Part shown: one piece after another, positions 1-5,699 of the stretch
How positions within the stretch are numbered: the stretch's first letter is position 1
Layout: every line of letters begins with the position of its first letter
Source of the DNA: a virus
DNA: 10,384 nucleotides
UHGV virus genome: UHGV-0374782
Reading direction: 5' to 3' (one strand)
Translations under genes and position numbers: made by a program
Notes under the pieces: generated by a model
What the model was told of the DNA's origin: nothing
What the model saw: the letters and a program-made list of their open reading frames with translations, nothing else
The model's database searches: none

Positions 1-1812
1 GCTGATGCCAATGGCAAAATGCGCCCAAAGGAAACTGTGTTACTGGATTTGTACAAGGCCACGCAGAAATACGGGCAGGTTGATCAGGTTTCATTCTTTA
101 AAAACATTGCCGGTGAAGAAGCCTTTGTGGGTTTGCAAACACTGGTACAGGCGGCGGGTTCTGGTGAACTGCAAAAGCTGACAAAAGAACTTCAGGGGGC
201 AGCCGGTGAATCAGCGATCGTTGCAAAAAAAATGGCTGACAACCTGGGTGGTGACCTGAAAGAGCTCGACAGCGCCTGGGAAGCGTTCCGCATTCAGGTC
301 GAAGAACTCGCAGACGGTGCATTACGCAAATTAACTCAGGCATTAAGTGGCACTATCGGGGTTATGACAGAGTGGGCGCATAACAACCCCCAACTTTCAA
401 AAGCACTGCTGGTGACACTCGGAAGCACCCTGGCACTGACCGCCGGAATTGGCGCAACCTCCCTGGCGGTGGGCCTGCTGCTGGGGCCGCTGGCAAAGTT
501 ACAGCTTGGCTTTACCCTGTTAACCAGTGCAAGCGGGCTGGGTGGTGCGATCCCTCTGTTTACCCGTCTCGGTAGTGTGATTACCGGGCCGCTTGGCAGT
601 ATCCGCGGCTGGGGCCAGGCGTTCAGCATGATGGCAGGAAGCACCGGAAAACTCACTGCCGTATTAACGCCATTGCGCGGGATGATGGCGGCAGCGTTTA
701 TTTCACCAGGGGCGGCGCTCAGTGGTCTGGTTAAGGGTATTGGCGGCTTACTTCTCAGGCTGACCGGTATCCCTGCCATTATGGGAATAGCGTCATCAGC
801 GCTTAGCGCATTAGGCGGCGCGCTCTCTTTGCTGTTAAGTCCAATCGGCTTGATTGGCGCGGCATTTATCGCAACAGGGTTGCTGATCTGGCGATTCTGG
901 GAACCCATTAAGGCATTTTTTGCAGGCTTCTTTTCCGGGGTTATGCAGGCGCTGACGCCATTCCGGGATGCTTTCGCGGGTCTGGCCCCCGTTTTTGGGG
1001 TGATCGCTAATGCCGTCTCGCAGTTGTGGCAGTGGTTTAGCAATCTGCTGACCCCCGTGAACGCCAGTAAAGAGACGCTGGATAAATGCGCCAGCGCCGG
1101 GGAGACATTCGGCAGGGTCTTTGGCCTCGCCATTCAGGGGCTCATGTTACCTCTGACCGGGCTGGCCAAGATGGTTGGCTGGATTCTGGAAAAGCTGGGG
1201 CTGATACCCTCAGGAATCGACGCGGCAAAAGCGAAAGCGGAGAAAGTCCAGAAGGAATTAACACCGGCAGGGCTGGCATTACTTCAGGACAAAGTAAGTG
1301 CACTGACCGGAGATATTAAAGCCGCAAGCCAGCCTGTTGCAGCGCCGCCGTCACCCGTCATTGCAACTGAAACAGGAACCCAGCGCCGCCTGCAAAAAAT
1401 TGCTGACAACACCGGCGGGATGCTGGATGAAACCAAAAAGCAGCGGATTGGCCCCGGTGATATCGTGTTTAAAAACCTGCCCCAGGCACTCGCCGTTCAT
1501 GGTGCATGGCAGGAAGCACGATCAACGCCCGGAGCGAACCTGGCGCAACTTGGCGCACGAACAGTGATTGCAGCAGCATCCGCACCAATCAAACCACCGG
1601 TAACAGCACCGGCAGTGGGGCAACCTGGCAGGGCTGAACGAAGCTCCCAGGCGAAAACCGCCGCACCATTTGGGGAAATGCATGTTCATGTACACCTTCA
1701 CGGTAATTTCACGGATAACGCACGCGATATTGCCCGCGCAGCCGCTGACGCAGTACAGGCGGAATTTGATAAACGTTTCCGCTCACGTAGCAGCTTCAGT
1801 GACAACGATTAA
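1..1812 (+). CDS. Phage tail tape measure protein (P2 gpT-like), 5'-partial; the frame is open from base 1, so the gene starts upstream of the window
   Basis: About 600-codon ORF with no in-frame stop from base 1 (the ATG at 19 is internal). Long Gly/Ala/Leu-rich hydrophobic central stretches and coiled-coil-like ends are typical of tape measure proteins. It is followed 11 nt downstream by a gpU-like gene, as in the P2 FI-FII-E-T-U-D operon. Stop TAA at 1810..1812. Confidence 0.85.
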   Translation, partial: ADANGKMRPKETVLLDLYKATQKYGQVDQVSFFKNIAGEEAFVGLQTLVQAAGSGELQKLTKELQGAAGESAIVAKKMADNLGGDLKELDSAWEAFRIQVEELADGALRKLTQALSGTIGVMTEWAHNNPQLSKALLVTLGSTLALTAGIGATSLAVGLLLGPLAKLQLGFTLLTSASGLGGAIPLFTRLGSVITGPLGSIRGWGQAFSMMAGSTGKLTAVLTPLRGMMAAAFISPGAALSGLVKGIGGLLLRLTGIPAIMGIASSALSALGGALSLLLSPIGLIGAAFIATGLLIWRFWEPIKAFFAGFFSGVMQALTPFRDAFAGLAPVFGVIANAVSQLWQWFSNLLTPVNASKETLDKCASAGETFGRVFGLAIQGLMLPLTGLAKMVGWILEKLGLIPSGIDAAKAKAEKVQKELTPAGLALLQDKVSALTGDIKAASQPVAAPPSPVIATETGTQRRLQKIADNTGGMLDETKKQRIGPGDIVFKNLPQALAVHGAWQEARSTPGANLAQLGARTVIAAASAPIKPPVTAPAVGQPGRAERSSQAKTAAPFGEMHVHVHLHGNFTDNARDIARAAADAVQAEFDKRFRSRSSFSDND

Positions 1813-1823
1813 AGAGGATTGAA

Positions 1824-2312
1824 ATGATGATGGTTTACGGAATGTTCGTCTTTGAATTGAAGACCGTTCCACACCAACAAATGCAACAGTCAAAAACCTG
1901 GCGGCATGTGAAAAATGAGCGCATTAACCGTTCAGCAAAATGGCAGTACATTGGCGCTGGCGATGATCAGATCACGCTTTCCGGCGTGCTGTATCCTCAG
2001 ATTACCGGTGGCAAGGTTAGCCTTGCTGTACTGGATACGCAGGCATACACCGGACGGCCCTGGCCCCTGATTAGCGGCACAGGGCAGATCTTCGGGATGT
2101 ATGCCCTTACCCAGCTACAGACCACGCATACTGAATTCGACCGGTATGGAGAGGCAAAGAAAATAGAATTTACTATTACCTTCCAGCGAGAAGATGAAGA
2201 CCTCAGAGAAAGCCTTCAGTCATCATCCGTGGGGGATTTACTTAACAACCTACAGAGTACCGCCAAATCAGCGTATAACAGCGTGAGCGCCGCCACATCA
2301 AGCCTGTTTTAA
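1824..2312 (+). CDS. Phage tail protein U (P2 gpU-like)
   Basis: 162-aa ORF starting MMMVYGMFVFELKTVP..., recalled similarity to P2 gpU. Shine-Dalgarno AGAGGA lies 7 nt upstream of the ATG at 1824. It directly follows the tape measure stop, consistent with translational coupling. Confidence 0.85.
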   Translation: MMMVYGMFVFELKTVPHQQMQQSKTWRHVKNERINRSAKWQYIGAGDDQITLSGVLYPQITGGKVSLAVLDTQAYTGRPWPLISGTGQIFGMYALTQLQTTHTEFDRYGEAKKIEFTITFQREDEDLRESLQSSSVGDLLNNLQSTAKSAYNSVSAATSSLF

Positions 2313-2324
2313 CCGTTGACCAAT

Positions 2325-2354
2325 GCCGCGCCACCAGGTGCGGCTTTTATTTTT
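2325..2354 (+). terminator. Rho-independent terminator of the T-U transcription unit
   Basis: GCCGCGCC-ACCA-GGTGCGGC hairpin (8-bp GC-rich stem with one G-U pair, 4-nt loop) followed by TTTTATTTTT, 13 nt after the U stop. On the opposite strand there is no U-run after the hairpin, so it is unidirectional. Confidence 0.7.
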
Positions 2355-2391
2355 CAGCGTTCCGCAACTGAATCTTCTGGCTGCACCAGGG

Positions 2392-2945
2392 CTAATATTT
2401 ACCGGCGGGGATTTTTTTGTATAAGGTCGATATCCCAACATCATAAATAATCGCCACACGCCGCCGTGATTCTCCTGCCGCTAACAATCTTTCTGCCTGC
2501 GCCCATTGCTCCGGGGTTAATTTTGGTTTTCTGCCGCCGATCCTGCCCTCTGCACGCGCCGCAGACAATCCCGCCCTGGTGCGTTCGACAATCAACTCTC
2601 GCTCCATTTCAGCCAGTGCGCCCATGACGTGAAAGAAAAAACGCCCCATTGGCGAAGACGTATCTATGCTGTCAGTCAGGCTGCGAAAGTTAATCTCCCT
2701 TTCCCGCAGTTCCTCCACTAAAACGACAAGATGCCGCATGCTGCGACCGAGGCGATCCAGTTCCAGACCACAAGAGTATCGCCCTCTGACAAGGTTCGGA
2801 GCAGCCTTTTAAGCCCTGGTCTGTCTGATGTTTTACCGCTGATTTTGTCTTCAAAAATAAGCTCACATCCTGCGCACTCCAGTGCATTTCGCTGTAATGC
2901 GGTGTTCTGGTCATTTGTTGATACACGCACATAGCCGATAAGCAT
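2392..2945 (-). pseudogene. pin: Serine DNA invertase (Hin/Gin/Cin/Pin family), interrupted by a 1-nt frameshift
   Basis: Two adjacent minus-strand ORFs (2718..2945 and 2392..2739) together cover a full-length invertase. The N-terminal part has MLIGYVRVSTNDQNT...GDTLVVW with the catalytic Ser in VRVS. The C-terminal part has SLTDSIDTSSPMGRFFFHVMGALAEMERELIVERT and a C-terminal HTH. The frames rejoin if one nucleotide is restored in the sense sequence GTGGTCTGGAA-CTGGATCGCCTCGGTCGC (plus coords about 2760..2765), which would read W-K-L-D-R-L-G-R as in intact family members. The symbol is a family-level assignment. Confidence 0.85.
2846..2926. promoter_or_regulatory. Putative Fis-dependent recombinational enhancer inside the 5' coding region of the invertase gene
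   Basis: In hin, gin and cin the enhancer lies within the first ~100 bp of the invertase ORF, over codons for ...STxDQNxxLQRNAL.... The equivalent codons here (VSTNDQNTALQRNALECAGCE) map to about 2846..2926. This is positional inference only; individual Fis sites were not resolved. Confidence 0.3.
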
Positions 2946-2968
2946 GATAAATAGCCCTGTAAAAAGCC

Positions 2969-3550
2969 GTGATCATGCCATCCGAACGGAATAACTGCAT
3001 TTTCCAAAAGGTTGGTTTGGGAGAAGGCTCTGCATTACCGGTTGGGGTGCCTGTTCCGTGGCCTTCAGCCACTCCGCCAACAGGCTGGCTGAAATGCAAT
3101 GGTGCGGCTTTTTCTGCTGAAGAATACCCGGAACTGGCAAAGGCTTACCCGACCAATAAATTGCCTGATTTACGCGGTGAATTTATTCGTGGCTGGGATG
3201 ATGGACGTGGAGTGGATGCGGGGCGAGCCTTGCTAAGTCTTCAGGATGACTCTTTTGAAGCTCACAGACATGAGTCCTTTTTTTACGCGGGTATTTCACG
3301 CAATGAAACACCATTAAAAAATCTTCCAAGTTCAGACGAGATGCTGACTTTAAGTTCCACAACTAATGCCTTGTCCCCGGACAGTATTGATGCCACCAAT
3401 TCGTTAATTGGTAATGATGATTACAACTGTCTGATTGAAGGAAATAAAAATAACAAACGAACGGCAACGGGGTTGAGTACCAGTATTGTCGGTGCAGCAG
3501 AGACACGCCCACGTAATATTTCATTTAATTACATTGTGAGGGCTGCATGA
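2969..3550 (+). CDS. Alternative tail-fibre C-terminal cassette (Mu Sv'/P1 Sv'-like), silent in the present orientation
   Basis: The ORF reads through the crossover site in the same frame as the tail fibre gene (…FQKVGLGE|GSALPVGVPVPWP…). It carries the tail-collar motif PWP…PxGWLKCNG…YPELAKAYP…LPDLRGEFIRGWDDGRG and ends …NISFNYIVRAA, like Mu S / P1 S C-termini. The ATG at 2969 is unlikely to be a real start; only codons from about 3014 would be fused to the fibre constant region after inversion. Confidence 0.75.
   Translation: MIMPSERNNCIFQKVGLGEGSALPVGVPVPWPSATPPTGWLKCNGAAFSAEEYPELAKAYPTNKLPDLRGEFIRGWDDGRGVDAGRALLSLQDDSFEAHRHESFFYAGISRNETPLKNLPSSDEMLTLSSTTNALSPDSIDATNSLIGNDDYNCLIEGNKNNKRTATGLSTSIVGAAETRPRNISFNYIVRAA
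3000..3025. other. Invertase crossover site (gix/pix/hix-like), left boundary of the invertible segment
   Basis: 26-bp imperfect palindrome TTTTCCAAAAGG-TT-GGTTTGGGAGAA. The right half-site fits the family consensus GGTTTnnGAGAA exactly, and it is in inverted orientation relative to the site at 4638..4663. Confidence 0.8.
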
Positions 3551-4155
3551 TGTATAACGCTATCTTAAATAATAAATTTATTGCCACAAAGGCAGGAGAG
3601 GTTACCGTTTATAACTATGACAGTGAGACACGGGAGTATATTTCTGCATCAATTGAATATCTTGCTGTGGGTGTCGGTATCCCCGCATATTCCTGTTTAG
3701 ATGCTCCTGGCACACATAAGGCTGGTTATGCAATCTGCCGTTCTGCAGATTTTAACTCATGGGAATATGTGCCAGACCATCGCGGTGAAATCGTCTTTAG
3801 CACCGAAACAGGAGAATCAAAAGAAATCACAGCTCCGGGTGATTACCCTGATAATACAACCACTATCGCCCCGTTAACACCATACGATAAATGGGATGGT
3901 GAGAAATGGGTGACGGATACCGATGCACAGCATAGCGCCGCAGTAGATGCAGCAGAAGCACAACGCCTGTCGCTGATTGATACTGCAATGGCTTCCATCA
4001 GTCTGATTCAACTGAAATTACAGGCCGGACGGAATCTGACGCAGGCAGAAACCAGCCGACTTAACACGGTGCTGGATTACATTGACGCGGTGACGGCAAC
4101 AGATACCAGCACCGCGCCTGATATTATTTGGCCTGTATTCCCTGAGACTGATTAA
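3547..4155 (+). CDS. Tail fibre assembly protein (Tfa / Mu U'-like chaperone) for the alternative fibre tip
   Basis: 202-aa ORF overlapping the upstream cassette stop by ATGA. The C-terminal motif …LNTVLDYIDAVTATDTSTAPDIIWPVFPE is characteristic of the Tfa/gpG/U chaperone family. Confidence 0.85.
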   Translation: MMYNAILNNKFIATKAGEVTVYNYDSETREYISASIEYLAVGVGIPAYSCLDAPGTHKAGYAICRSADFNSWEYVPDHRGEIVFSTETGESKEITAPGDYPDNTTTIAPLTPYDKWDGEKWVTDTDAQHSAAVDAAEAQRLSLIDTAMASISLIQLKLQAGRNLTQAETSRLNTVLDYIDAVTATDTSTAPDIIWPVFPETD

Positions 4156-4384
4156 CCTCAATTAGTATTGGTTCGCCTTTCTCATTAATTGTTAGCTCCA
4201 TGCCCTGAGGAATTTCTGTCATAGTAAAAAACCAGTTGTCCTCCGGTAATTCAATAGCCCCGGTCACGTCATGAAGACCGGGGATTACTTCAGTCAAAGT
4301 AACTGGATTAAACAGGCGCACAATAAACCCTCCAGGAAAAAGCATTTGATGATGGTCTGCCGTCGTACATCTGGCAGCGGGCAT
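4124..4384 (-). CDS. Hypothetical small ORF downstream of the expressed fibre tip; the start is uncertain (candidate ATGs at 4345, 4222, 4201) and it may not be a gene
   Basis: 86-codon ORF whose 5' end overlaps the fibre gene's 3' end in another frame and whose 3' end overlaps the 3' end of the convergent Tfa gene by 32 nt. No convincing Shine-Dalgarno precedes any internal ATG. It has no Tfa-like C-terminal motif. It occupies the position where Mu or P1 would carry the second chaperone gene. Confidence 0.2.
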   Translation of the reverse strand: MPAARCTTADHHQMLFPGGFIVRLFNPVTLTEVIPGLHDVTGAIELPEDNWFFTMTEIPQGMELTINEKGEPILIEVNQSQGIQAK

Positions 4385-5699
4385 AAAAGCCGGTATTTGT
4401 TAACTGATCATCCACGATCATTGAAACGTGAACATTATTAGGTGTGCTCTCGTAATCCGTTCTTATTCTTTCCGCGATACTGATAAAACGTGAAAGTTTA
4501 GGCAGTGCAATTGGGTAAACAACTTTAGCCAGTCCATTATCATTAGATCCACCGGTTCCAAATACTTCTATTGCACCATCTGACCAGCGTATCCATGCAC
4601 CATTGGCATTAGCTCCTCGCTGAATGACATATCTGGCTTCTCCCAAACCAAGGTATTGGAGAAGGCCTGAAACACTTTTCCCACTGAGGTCGGTCAGTGT
4701 GGCATCCAGTGGTTGTTTACCTGCCAGTGCATTTGTGATTGTCGTGGCGAAGTTAGGGTCATTACCCAATGCGGCCGCCAGTTCATTTAACGTATCCAGT
4801 GCCTCCGGCGACGAGCCGACCAGCCCGGCAACCGCTGCTTTCACAAATGCCGTGGTAGCAATCTGCGTATTATTCACCGTCTGCGCAGCCGTCGGAGCCG
4901 TCGGCGTTCCGGTCAGGGCCGGGCTTGCCAGTGGTGCTTTCAGCGCCAACGCATTGTTAATAGTGGTGCTGAAATTTGGGTCATTGTTGATAGCCACAGC
5001 AATTTCTTTCAGCGTATCCAGCGTTGCCGGTGCTCCGCCGATCAGGGTAAGAATCGCCGCCTGCACAAAAGCAGTACTGGCAATCTGCGTGGTGTTATTC
5101 CCTGCCGGTGCCGTTGGTGTTTTTGGCGTTCCGGTAAGTGACGGGCTTTCCTTCGGTGCATATTGCTTATGCGGATCTGCCGCCGAAAGGTGAGAGTCCA
5201 TCAGCTTAGTTGCATAACTCTTAACCTCAAGCACTGCCACATCAACATACTGACGCGTTGCGAGTACCACAGACGGATCAATCTTCAGGGTAACTGCGTC
5301 CGTGCTCGATACAGTTAGAAGCATCCTGATAACCTGAGTTCGGCCCGATCCCTCATCTGTTGTCGCCTTGTATGTTTCCGGGCAGTTAGCAACAGCAATC
5401 AAATCACCATCAGCATCAAAAAGCCCGATTTCGCGAATCCACCAACCACCGGCAGATTCAGGAATAATTTGTTCTGCAATAATCTGGCTGTCGTTGTTTT
5501 TATCGACTGACAGGGAATTAAGCTGGGCGCGGCGCACCTCGTTAACCAGCTTCGTTTGAGCCTGGTTAGGGGTTGGCGATACACCGCCGCCATCACCTAC
5601 CGCGAGTGAAGTGATATTCAGCTTTTCACCCAGCGCCGCCATGTTTGATAATTTTGCTGCCCCCACATTAGTCAGCAGGGCAAAGTATTTAAGCGCCAT
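4308..5699 (-). CDS. Tail fibre protein (P2 gpH-like); constant region about aa 1-350, variable tip about aa 355-463 lying inside the invertible segment
   Basis: The N-terminus (…AVGDGGG…, …IRMLLTVSS…) resembles P2 gpH / Mu S N-terminal baseplate-attachment domains. The shaft has two about 74-aa repeats (LTGTP…NNTQIA.TAFV…LDTL.E.A.A..NDPNF.TTI.NALA.K). The C-terminal tip (…GAWIRWSDGAIEVFGT…VVYPIALP…TGFYARCQ…FSWRVY…) looks like a complete distal receptor-binding domain, but of a different class from the silent cassette. The start overlaps the upstream gpI-like gene end. Confidence 0.9.
   Translation of the reverse strand: MALKYFALLTNVGAAKLSNMAALGEKLNITSLAVGDGGGVSPTPNQAQTKLVNEVRRAQLNSLSVDKNNDSQIIAEQIIPESAGGWWIREIGLFDADGDLIAVANCPETYKATTDEGSGRTQVIRMLLTVSSTDAVTLKIDPSVVLATRQYVDVAVLEVKSYATKLMDSHLSAADPHKQYAPKESPSLTGTPKTPTAPAGNNTTQIASTAFVQAAILTLIGGAPATLDTLKEIAVAINNDPNFSTTINNALALKAPLASPALTGTPTAPTAAQTVNNTQIATTAFVKAAVAGLVGSSPEALDTLNELAAALGNDPNFATTITNALAGKQPLDATLTDLSGKSVSGLLQYLGLGEARYVIQRGANANGAWIRWSDGAIEVFGTGGSNDNGLAKVVYPIALPKLSRFISIAERIRTDYESTPNNVHVSMIVDDQLTNTGFYARCQMYDGRPSSNAFSWRVYCAPV
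4638..4663. other. Invertase crossover site (gix/pix/hix-like), right boundary of the invertible segment
   Basis: Plus strand TTCTCCCAAACCAAGGTATTGGAGAA; its reverse complement is TTCTCCAATACC-TT-GGTTTGGGAGAA. It shares 23 of 27 positions with the 3000..3025 site and the same central TT dinucleotide. Confidence 0.8.
4700..5145. repeat. Intragenic tandem direct repeat, two units with a 222-bp period, encoding the tail-fibre shaft repeats
   Basis: Anchors repeat at a 222-bp offset: gggtcatt at 4756 and 4978, cgtatccag at 4791 and 5013, gcaatctgcgt at 4858 and 5080. The units are imperfect (very roughly 70% identical by eye). Boundaries are approximate. Confidence 0.6.

What the first reader, a model, noticed from the sequence alone, without database searches (positions are those of the whole stretch)
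3026..4637. The two arms of the invertible segment are asymmetric: different tip classes, and only one arm has a recognisable chaperone
The silent arm encodes a tail-collar tip (PWP…GWLKCNG…LPDLRGEFIRGW…NISFNYIVRAA) plus a 202-aa Tfa chaperone, about 1.13 kb in all. The expressed arm encodes a shorter, unrelated tip (…GAWIRWSDGAIEVFG…FSWRVYCAPV) and no Tfa homologue, only about 0.33 kb of fibre coding sequence followed by about 150 bp and a doubtful small ORF. In Mu and P1 both arms carry fibre tip plus chaperone. This suggests either a chaperone-independent tip or a deletion or replacement in one arm, i.e. a mosaic switch assembled from unrelated receptor-binding modules.
Basis: partly seen in the sequence, partly recalled or inferred. 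Interest (0 to 1): 0.55.

Follow-up and report, generated by a model that had tools for sequence, protein, structure and literature searches.

The report
Tail-fibre switch with a half-size chaperone
The two arms of this prophage tail-fibre switch really do differ, but the "doubtful" small ORF is a conserved 65-residue gene matching only the fibre-binding half of a normal tail-fibre chaperone, so the arm is a common ready-made module and not a damaged one.

Summary
The window is the tail region of a P2-like E. coli prophage. It carries a Gin/Hin-type invertible segment with crossover sites at 3000-3025 and 4638-4663.

- **Silent arm:** a tail-collar tip (PF07484) plus a 202-aa Tfa (PF02413).

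The "doubtful ORF" is a real gene, but it runs 4321..4124, not from 4384. It has a GTG start, a GGAGGG ribosome-binding site, and overlaps the fibre stop codon. Its 65-aa product belongs to a family of 57-71-aa proteins found across Enterobacterales. These lie directly after this knob in almost every one of about 70 loci that hold the upstream DNA (dN/dS about 0.13). In 12 non-invertible P2-like elements the gene sits exactly where gpG (Tfa) normally lies.

The protein is homologous to the N-terminal module of two-domain Tfa proteins but lacks their conserved C-terminal helical domain. I call it a mini-Tfa. Its function as a chaperone or cap is inferred, not shown.

The invertase gene has a 1-nt deletion, so the switch is probably locked.

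The parts
2392..2945 (-). Serine DNA invertase (Gin/Hin/Pin type), a pseudogene with a 1-nt deletion after codon 62, at about position 2762.
   Evidence: Two ORFs, 2718-2945 and 2392-2739, hit PF00239 and HTH_7 and PHROG DNA invertase families. PGAP marks it 'frameshifted'. Alignment to three intact invertases shows 'tgg-aactgg' against 'tggaagctgg'.
3000..3025 (.). Left 26-bp crossover site, TTTTCCAAAAGG TT GGTTTGGGAGAA.
   Evidence: Arm of inverted repeat I1; sequence. The inner half-site is identical to the fibre/collar-tip junction in a strain with the opposite orientation, L002.
4638..4663 (.). Right 26-bp crossover site, TTCTCCCAAACC AA GGTATTGGAGAA. It lies inside the fibre gene and encodes ...LLQYLGLGE.
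   Evidence: Homology with strains in the opposite orientation stops right after the central AA at 4650-4651.
3013..3550 (+). Silent alternative fibre C-terminus: a tail-collar type tip, about 175 aa after the crossover.
   Evidence: PF07484 Collar, E 1.7e-15, plus a weak S_tail_recep_bd hit. PHROG tail-collar fibre families. Fused to the fibre in L002.
3547..4155 (+). Silent-arm two-domain tail fibre assembly protein (Tfa, 202 aa).
   Evidence: PF02413 Caudo_TAP, 108 bits, residues 79-200. phrog_105 tail fiber assembly, E 1.8e-95.
4124..4321 (-). Mini-Tfa: a 65-aa protein (GTG start) equivalent to the N-terminal, tip-specific module of a modular Tfa. It has no C-terminal helical domain. Its 3' end overlaps the Tfa 3' end by 32 nt.
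   Evidence: phrog_5400 positions 1-66 of 145, E 7.9e-25. Family of 57-66-aa proteins. Next to the knob tip in nearly every locus that holds the upstream DNA. dN/dS about 0.13. Homology to the N-terminus of P0174 and phage JK004 gene_1, both PF02413.
4328..4333 (-). Shine-Dalgarno GGAGGG for the mini-Tfa, 6 nt before the GTG. The same bases encode the tip's invariant W-R residues.
   Evidence: Sequence. GGAG is conserved upstream of the aligned ATG/GTG start in all 19 sequences examined, the 18 loci L001-L018 plus the window.
4308..4650 (-). Expressed alternative fibre C-terminus: a divergent gp53-like lectin-type knob, about 110 aa.
4651..5699 (-). Constant part of the P2 gpH-like tail fibre. 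The whole gene is 4308-5699 (463 aa).
   Evidence: PF12571 Phage_tail_fib, E 3.7e-61. PHROG tail fibre families. Followed by gpI, gpJ, gpW and gpV.

Best explanation
This is a Gin/Hin-type invertible tail-fibre switch of a P2-like prophage. Each arm is a self-contained receptor-binding module of a different kind.

- **Arm now joined to the fibre gene:** a gp53-like, R-pyocin-foot-like lectin knob, followed by a translationally coupled 65-aa mini-Tfa at 4321..4124.
- **Mini-Tfa:** it corresponds to the N-terminal, tip-specific module of a modular tail fibre assembly protein. It lacks the conserved C-terminal helical domain that published work assigns to trimerisation.
- **Most likely function (inferred):** it binds the nascent or finished knob as that arm's dedicated assembly factor or cap, taking the place of gpG/Tfa.
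- **Other arm:** collar tip plus 202-aa Tfa, silent because transcription enters only from the constant fibre part.
- **State of the switch:** the invertase carries a 1-nt deletion, so the switch is probably frozen with the knob arm on.

Shown: the anatomy, the tip fold class, that the small gene is real and selected, its strict linkage to this knob, its occupation of the gpG position, and its homology to Tfa N-domains. Inferred: binding to the knob and a chaperone or cap function without a C-domain.
For: **The small gene is real.**
- It has a conserved ATG/GTG start with GGAG upstream, overlapping the tip stop, in the window and all 18 loci L001-L018.
- Median dN/dS is 0.13 over non-overlapping codons 6-53.
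- The 57-66-aa family occurs in Escherichia, Salmonella, Enterobacter, Citrobacter, Hafnia, Xenorhabdus, Erwinia, Pantoea and others.

**It is linked to this knob.**
- In nearly every locus that holds the upstream DNA it lies directly after a homologue of the knob.
- It stays 58-75% identical where the tips are only 35-64% identical.

**It sits in the chaperone position.**
- Twelve non-invertible P2-like loci read I - H(knob) - small gene - sheath.
- Eight of these, examined with up to 10 kb on each side, contain no ORF with a Tfa C-domain. Six of seven invertible controls contain one. The seventh, L134, is the same contig as L049, where both arms carry a mini-Tfa, so none was expected there.

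**It is homologous to Tfa N-domains.**
- Residues 1-56 align with the N-termini of P0174 (E 7.8e-6 in a library of 1.8 billion proteins) and Cronobacter phage JK004 gene_1.
- Both are PF02413 members, at 73 and 74 bits.
- The JK004 C-terminal half matches Mu Tfa (5YVQ_B residues 110-174, E 8.6e-10).
- A second short type (71 aa, L048/L049) is 54-56% identical to the JK004 N-domain, and its tips are 71-75% identical to the JK004 tip.

**Tip fold and literature.**
- Tip fold.
- In Tfa proteins the N-domain binds the fibre and the C-domain trimerises (PMC9608196).
- R-pyocin lectin-fold tips need a chaperone for good soluble yield, and it co-purifies with them (PMC6363177).

**The switch works in nature.** Both orientations occur in other genomes, and homology breaks at the central AA.
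Against: - No direct Pfam, NCBIfam or PDB sequence match for the small protein.
- Profile-profile comparison with six classical Tfa proteins found nothing. Homology therefore rests on intermediate two-domain sequences.
- No usable structure model.
- No complex prediction and no experiment, so binding and function are inferred.
- The C-domain is thought to drive fibre trimerisation, so a protein without it may not act as a chaperone in the usual sense.
- The Tfa C-domain HMM used was built ad hoc from 8 sequences.
- In E. coli W the small gene is interrupted by an IS3 element. This shows the gene can be lost in a resident prophage and says nothing about fibre function.
Confidence: 0.62

Rival explanations
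1. The knob tip folds without any chaperone, and the small ORF is a decaying remnant of a Tfa gene whose 3' half was deleted.
For: - The product lacks the conserved Tfa C-domain and has no Pfam hit.
- Longer two-domain relatives exist.
- Some fibres work without their chaperone (PMC10579305, PMC11464564).
- An IS3 element interrupts the gene in E. coli W.
Against: - dN/dS is about 0.13.
- Length is conserved at 57-71 aa, and the start codon and Shine-Dalgarno site are conserved across many genera.
- The gene is retained as the only gene between H and the sheath gene in 12 non-invertible elements.
- It is more conserved than the tip itself.
Confidence: 0.08
2. Split chaperone: the 65-aa N-module works together with a Tfa C-terminal domain supplied in trans. 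That domain could come from the other arm's Tfa or from another prophage's Tfa.
For: - In this window a full Tfa lies in the same segment, converging on the small gene with a 32-nt overlap.
- E. coli genomes often carry several Tfa genes (general knowledge).
Against: - The other arm is read antisense from the fibre promoter, and promoter-like sites in the segment do not exceed chance.
- Eight non-invertible elements have no Tfa C-domain ORF within up to 10 kb on each side, and L049 has mini-Tfa genes on both arms.
- No known mechanism joins separate N and C modules.
Confidence: 0.08
3. The small protein is not a folding factor. It is a tip accessory that stays on, or transiently caps, the finished knob. 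It would shield the knob during lysis or contribute to receptor binding, as proposed for Mu Tfa and the Alteromonas phage chaperone caps.
For: - It retains only the fibre-binding module.
- Tfa of Mu remains on the fibre and is thought to bind LPS. Chaperone 'caps' have been proposed for fibres with lectin-like heads (PMC9608196, PMC10579305).
- Its conservation is higher than that of the variable tip.
Against: - No direct evidence either way.
- R-pyocin lectin-fold tips needed their chaperone for good soluble yield (PMC6363177), which points to a folding role for partners of this tip class.
Confidence: 0.2

Closest known systems
Invertible tail-fibre segments of phage Mu (G segment, Sv-U / S'v-U'), P1 (C segment) and e14 (P segment), driven by Gin/Cin/Pin serine invertases
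   Same: - A constant fibre N-terminal part lies outside the segment and alternative C-termini lie inside.
- 26-bp inverted crossover sites have a central AA/TT.
- An adjacent serine invertase gene is present.
- Accessory genes are arranged convergently inside the segment.
- Both orientations are seen in natural genomes.
   Different: - One arm carries a 65-aa N-domain-only protein instead of a full Tfa.
- The two tips are of unrelated folds rather than diverged copies.
- The invertase is a frameshifted pseudogene here.
- The host element is P2-like.
Modular tail fibre assembly proteins (Tfa; Pfam PF02413 Caudo_TAP; P2 gpG, Mu U, PDB 5YVQ)
   Same: - The gene lies immediately downstream of, and is translationally coupled to, the fibre gene.
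- The N-terminal 56 residues are homologous to the N-module of two-domain Tfa proteins.
- It occupies the gpG position in non-invertible P2-like elements.
   Different: - It lacks the conserved C-terminal helical domain, the part shared with Mu Tfa.
- It is about 60 aa long, against 130-200 aa.
- It fails the Pfam threshold.
- PHROG 5400, which it matches, is annotated 'unknown function'.
gp53-like C-terminal knob (Pfam PF21882; phage AP22 gp53, PDB 4MTM) and the R1/R2 pyocin fibre foot (PDB 6CXB, 6CU2, 6CL6)
   Same: - Weak but consistent PF21882 matches over the whole profile.
   Different: - Sequence identity is only 13-19%.
- The window tip is below the Pfam gathering score.
- R-pyocin fibres use a full-size chaperone (PA0621), which co-purifies with them (PMC6363177).
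Cronobacter phage JK004 gene_2 / gene_1 pair (MZ188976)
   Same: A knob-type tip cassette is followed directly by a partner whose N-terminal 56 residues are homologous to the window's 65-aa protein (34% identity).
   Different: The JK004 partner is 128 aa and keeps the Tfa C-domain (PF02413, 74 bits; matches 5YVQ_B).

Membership tests
Gin/Hin-type invertible tail-fibre switch | Adjacent serine DNA invertase gene | tested here: met
   PF00239 plus HTH_7 at 2392-2945. The gene is inactivated by a 1-nt deletion, so the switch is probably not autonomous in this strain.
Gin/Hin-type invertible tail-fibre switch | Inverted 26-bp crossover sites with a central AA/TT dinucleotide flanking the segment | tested here: met
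   Sites at 3000-3025 and 4638-4663. Resemblance to the hix/gix/cix consensus is from memory.
Gin/Hin-type invertible tail-fibre switch | Both orientations occur, with the breakpoint at the crossover site | tested here: met
   E. coli genomes carry the knob either fused to the fibre or detached. About 16 ON and 25 OFF among the invertible loci. Homology with L002 ends after AA 4650-4651.
Gin/Hin-type invertible tail-fibre switch | Fis-dependent recombinational enhancer in or near the invertase gene | not tested
   No search for an enhancer was made.
Tfa / PF02413 Caudo_TAP (65-aa product) | Pfam match above the gathering score | tested here: not met
   No PF02413 hit for the window protein or for any of 28 family members, even at E 10.
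Tfa / PF02413 Caudo_TAP (65-aa product) | Conserved C-terminal helical domain (ending ...W.YR..L..VD....WP..P) | tested here: not met
   The conserved core ends at about residue 56 and is followed by a variable 1-15-residue tail. In non-invertible loci there is no room for a C-domain before the sheath gene.
Tfa / PF02413 Caudo_TAP (65-aa product) | N-terminal module homologous to that of bona fide family members | tested here: met
   P0174 (E 7.8e-6 for the whole library; PF02413 73 bits over residues 12-131) and JK004 gene_1 (PF02413 74 bits). A direct profile comparison with six other Tfa proteins was negative.
Tfa / PF02413 Caudo_TAP (65-aa product) | Gene immediately downstream of the tail-fibre gene (gpG position) | tested here: met
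   14-nt overlap with the fibre stop. Order I-H-small-sheath in 12 loci.
Tfa / PF02413 Caudo_TAP (65-aa product) | Binds the fibre tip and is needed for fibre assembly | not testable with these tools
   No multimer prediction or experiment was available.
gp53-like C-terminal knob, PF21882 (expressed tip) | Pfam match above the gathering score | tested here: inconclusive
   Window tip scores 17.5 bits against a cut-off of 24.9. All 19 family members match positions 2-80 of 84 weakly, best E 4.2e-5.
gp53-like C-terminal knob, PF21882 (expressed tip) | Lectin-type beta-sandwich fold like 4MTM or the R-pyocin foot | tested here: met
   [not shown]
Phage tail collar tip, PF07484 (silent tip) | Pfam match above the gathering score | tested here: met
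   57.2 bits against a cut-off of 24.

The most novel reading that the evidence does not exclude
A widespread, uncharacterised family of about 60-residue mini-Tfa proteins is a free-standing tip-binding module that assembles or caps lectin-knob tail fibres without the conserved C-terminal trimerisation domain. That domain has been dropped in at least two sequence types (MRLFNP and MWYWNP), while close relatives of the same tips keep a two-domain partner. If so, the Tfa C-domain is dispensable for this tip class.
Probability: 0.45. Interest if true: 0.55.

Novelty: new variant of a known kind. Interest (0 to 1): 0.42.

Why it matters
- **Tfa mechanism.** Published work assigns fibre binding to the variable N-domain and trimerisation to the conserved C-domain. 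A naturally occurring, strongly conserved N-domain-only partner gives a direct test of whether the C-domain is needed for a lectin-knob tip.
- **Engineering.** Retargeting phages or R-type tailocins needs the right tip and chaperone pair. A 110-aa knob plus a 60-aa partner would be a very compact portable module.
- **Annotation.** The gene is called 'hypothetical protein' in RefSeq and has no Pfam family. In many of the detached-tip E. coli records seen here the knob cassette is also called 'hypothetical protein'. Both could be named.
- **This strain.** The frameshifted invertase suggests host range is fixed on the knob arm.

Tried and rejected
- **Structure of the small protein.** The single-sequence model was useless (pLDDT 51), so I made no fold comparison with the Mu Tfa N-domain.
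- **Gene-context look-ups.** I used genome and viral contig scans instead.
- **Direct family searches for the small protein.** Pfam, NCBIfam, PDB sequence and PDB profile searches returned only noise. hhalign against six classical Tfa proteins gave probability 0.08.
- **Hits to giant repeat proteins.** P0159 (2,709 aa, 15 stretches) and P0166 matched in the representative search. I judge these to be summed weak repeat matches, not homology.
- **Apparent triple knob cassettes in L067/L068.** These turned out to be one frameshifted tip split into three matches.
- **Promoter and terminator scan of the segment.** No more sites than in shuffled sequence.
- **Literature.** North et al. 2019 and North & Davidson 2021 are not held in the library. 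Their conclusions are cited second-hand from PMC9608196.
- **Non-invertible arrangement in E. coli.** A search for the H-small-sheath arrangement in complete E. coli genomes found none at blastn sensitivity.
Full report
**What the window is.** The window is 100% identical, over the stretches compared (4100-4680 and 2380-2960), to a prophage in E. coli JX21CE33 and 30EVA2. The + strand carries a tape-measure gene (19-1812) and gpU (1824-2312, PF06995). The - strand carries a P2-type block:
- lysis genes and gpV (8125-7544)
- gpW (7547-7179)
- gpJ (7192-6296)
- gpI (6357-5689, PF09684)
- a 463-aa gpH-like fibre (5699-4308, PF12571)

A serine invertase gene (2945-2392, -) and the invertible segment lie between gpU and the fibre.

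**Checking the observation.** The repeat finder gives one outstanding inverted pair, 2997-3026 and 4637-4666. Each arm contains a 26-bp site of the hix/gix type:
- TTTTCCAAAAGG-TT-GGTTTGGGAGAA at 3000-3025
- TTCTCCCAAACC-AA-GGTATTGGAGAA at 4638-4663

The right site lies in the fibre gene and encodes ...LLQYLGLGE. The left site continues in frame into the silent tip.

- The silent arm is 1.13 kb. It holds a collar tip (PF07484, E 1.7e-15) and a 202-aa Tfa (PF02413, 108 bits).
- The expressed arm has 330 nt of tip coding sequence and then 152 nt.

The switch is a working design in nature. The same knob tip, small gene and convergent gene are present in 106 complete E. coli genomes. In some the knob is fused to the fibre and in others it is detached. 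Homology between the window and a strain in the opposite orientation ends right after the central AA at 4650-4651.

The best viral predicted structure is also annotated gp53-like. The expressed tip is a divergent member of a known lectin-knob class.

**The small ORF.** The real gene starts at GTG 4321.
- GGAGGG lies 6 nt upstream, at 4328-4333.
- The start overlaps the fibre's last codons: TGT GCG CCT GTT TAA is read as GTG CGC CTG TTT AAT.
- PGAP annotates exactly this 65-aa product.
- The window and all 18 loci examined (L001-L018) keep an ATG or GTG at this position, GGAG upstream and the same overlap. The bases encoding the tip's invariant ...SWRV... also serve as the ribosome-binding site.

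Homologues are 57-66 aa long. They share a conserved 55-residue core, MRLFNPxTMTEVIPGxHDxxGAIELPDDNWFFTxxEIPEGKxLAVNExGEPxLxD, followed by a short variable tail. They occur in Escherichia, Salmonella, Enterobacter, Citrobacter, Hafnia, Pseudescherichia, Xenorhabdus, Erwinia, Pantoea, Kalamiella, Trabulsiella and Intestinirhabdus. Over codons 6-53, which overlap no other gene, median dN/dS is 0.13 across 20 unsaturated pairs. The gene is real and under purifying selection.

**Linkage and position.** I examined 11 genome loci and 58 viral contigs. In nearly every case where upstream DNA is present, the small gene lies directly after a homologue of the knob tip. It remains 58-75% identical where the tips have drifted to 35-64%.

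Three arrangements occur:
1. **Non-invertible (12 loci):** gpI - H(knob) - small gene - sheath. The small gene sits exactly where P2 has gpG, for example in Erwinia aeris and Ca. Erwinia dacicola.
2. **Invertible with a different partner arm:** the other arm is collar plus 202-aa Tfa (as here), a gp53-like tip plus 140-aa Tfa, or a glycine-rich tip plus an 88-aa ORF.
3. **Invertible with a knob plus short partner on both arms:** L048 and L049.

So a second full Tfa does not normally lie at 4124-4307. The asymmetry comes from combining different ready-made modules.

**Relation to Tfa.** Direct searches of Pfam, NCBIfam and PDB find nothing for the small protein. A profile comparison with six classical Tfa proteins was also negative. 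An exhaustive phmmer search did find longer relatives whose first 50-56 residues align with it:
- P0174 (131 aa, E 7.8e-6 for a library of 1.8 billion proteins)
- P0181 (147 aa)
- P0173 (108 aa)

A tblastn search of phage genomes found gene_1 of Cronobacter phage JK004 (128 aa, 34% identity). P0174 and JK004 gene_1 are clear PF02413 members at 73 and 74 bits. The C-terminal half of the JK004 protein matches Mu Tfa (5YVQ_B residues 110-174, E 8.6e-10). The gene just upstream in JK004 is a knob cassette of the same kind.

The 71-aa partner in L048/L049 is 54-56% identical to the JK004 N-module, and the tips are 71-75% identical. Yet that partner stops before the C-domain.

The 65-aa protein is therefore the N-terminal module of a modular Tfa, without the C-terminal module. 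PHROG 5400, to which it matches at positions 1-66 of 145, is annotated as function unknown.

**How it most likely works.** Published structural work on Mu Tfa and Pam3 gp25 assigns fibre binding to the variable N-domain and trimerisation to the conserved C-terminal helices (PMC9608196). Lectin-fold R-pyocin tips needed their downstream chaperone for good soluble yield, and it co-purified with them (PMC6363177).

From position, coupling, linkage and homology I infer that the 65-aa protein binds the knob and acts as this arm's assembly factor or cap. It would be made by coupled translation from the fibre transcript. The collar arm and its Tfa lie antisense to that transcript and stay silent.

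Help from a C-domain encoded nearby is unlikely. Eight non-invertible elements with up to 10 kb on each side have no ORF matching an ad hoc Tfa C-domain HMM. The same HMM found the expected gene in six of seven invertible controls. The seventh, L134, is the contig of L049, where both arms carry a mini-Tfa, so no C-domain gene was expected. Binding and function remain untested.

**State of the switch here.** The invertase has a 1-nt deletion after codon 62, at about 2762, relative to three intact homologues. PGAP flags it as frameshifted. At full length and 100% identity this allele was found only in the two strains that carry this exact prophage, and both have the knob arm fused to the fibre. 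The switch is probably locked unless another invertase acts in trans.

**Verdict.**
- The novelty is modest. The invertible switch and both tip classes are known kinds. The N-domain-only Tfa family appears uncharacterised and is a new variant of a known kind.
- It gives a clean way to test whether the conserved Tfa C-domain is needed for lectin-knob fibres.

Noticed in passing
window 2392-2945 (about 2762): The invertase gene carries a 1-nt deletion after codon 62, reading TGG-AACTGG where three intact homologues read TGGAAGCTGG or TGGAAACTTG. At full length and 100% identity this allele was found only in strains JX21CE33 and 30EVA2. The switch is probably locked with the knob tip expressed.
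   Followed up: partly
L003 (E. coli W, NC_017664) 2069-3494: An IS3-family element is inserted in the 5' end of the small gene, replacing its first 7 codons, in a prophage whose fibre carries the knob tip.
   Followed up: no
L004/L005 2056-3056: Another arm type has a glycine-rich tip (GGGGGGGG..., 244 aa) followed by an 88-aa ORF. That ORF shares only its last 22 or so residues (IDAV..DTSTAP.IWPV.PE) with the Tfa C-terminus. The junction DNA is conserved with the window at 4090-4170, which suggests a recombination joint.
   Followed up: partly
L048, L049 (L049 2640-3749): This invertible segment has a knob plus a short N-domain-only partner on both arms (61 aa MRLFNP type and 71 aa MWYWNP type). 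The two small genes converge and overlap by 20 nt.
   Followed up: partly
P0159, P0166: The 65-aa protein gives high summed phmmer scores against giant repeat proteins (2,709 and 1,373 aa; 15 and 5 stretches at about 26-30% identity). These look like Mollicutes-type surface proteins. The scores probably come from adding up weak repeat matches.
   Followed up: partly
L006, L008, L013, L015: Several genome assemblies hold the segment as a separate 1.2-1.7 kb contig that starts at the knob tip. This is as expected if assembly breaks at the inverted repeats because both orientations were present in the culture.
   Followed up: no
window 4308-4333: This stretch is dual-use sequence. The codons for the tip's invariant ...FSWRVYCAPV end also provide the ribosome-binding site (TGGAGG) and the first five codons (MRLFN) of the small gene. 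That may explain why both motifs are invariant.
   Followed up: partly
window 19-2345: The tape-measure and gpU genes on the + strand converge on the invertase and fibre block, with a strong terminator-like hairpin at 2325-2344. No gpD follows gpU. The order differs from P2 and from most related loci, where the sheath gene follows the fibre module.
   Followed up: no
H115 (NZ_JBRBPZ010000006, 89 kb) and L062/L146 (89-kb viral contig): A knob plus small-gene cassette also occurs on replicons of about 89 kb that carry several tip cassettes. These may be a P1-like phage-plasmid with a multi-cassette invertible region.
   Followed up: no
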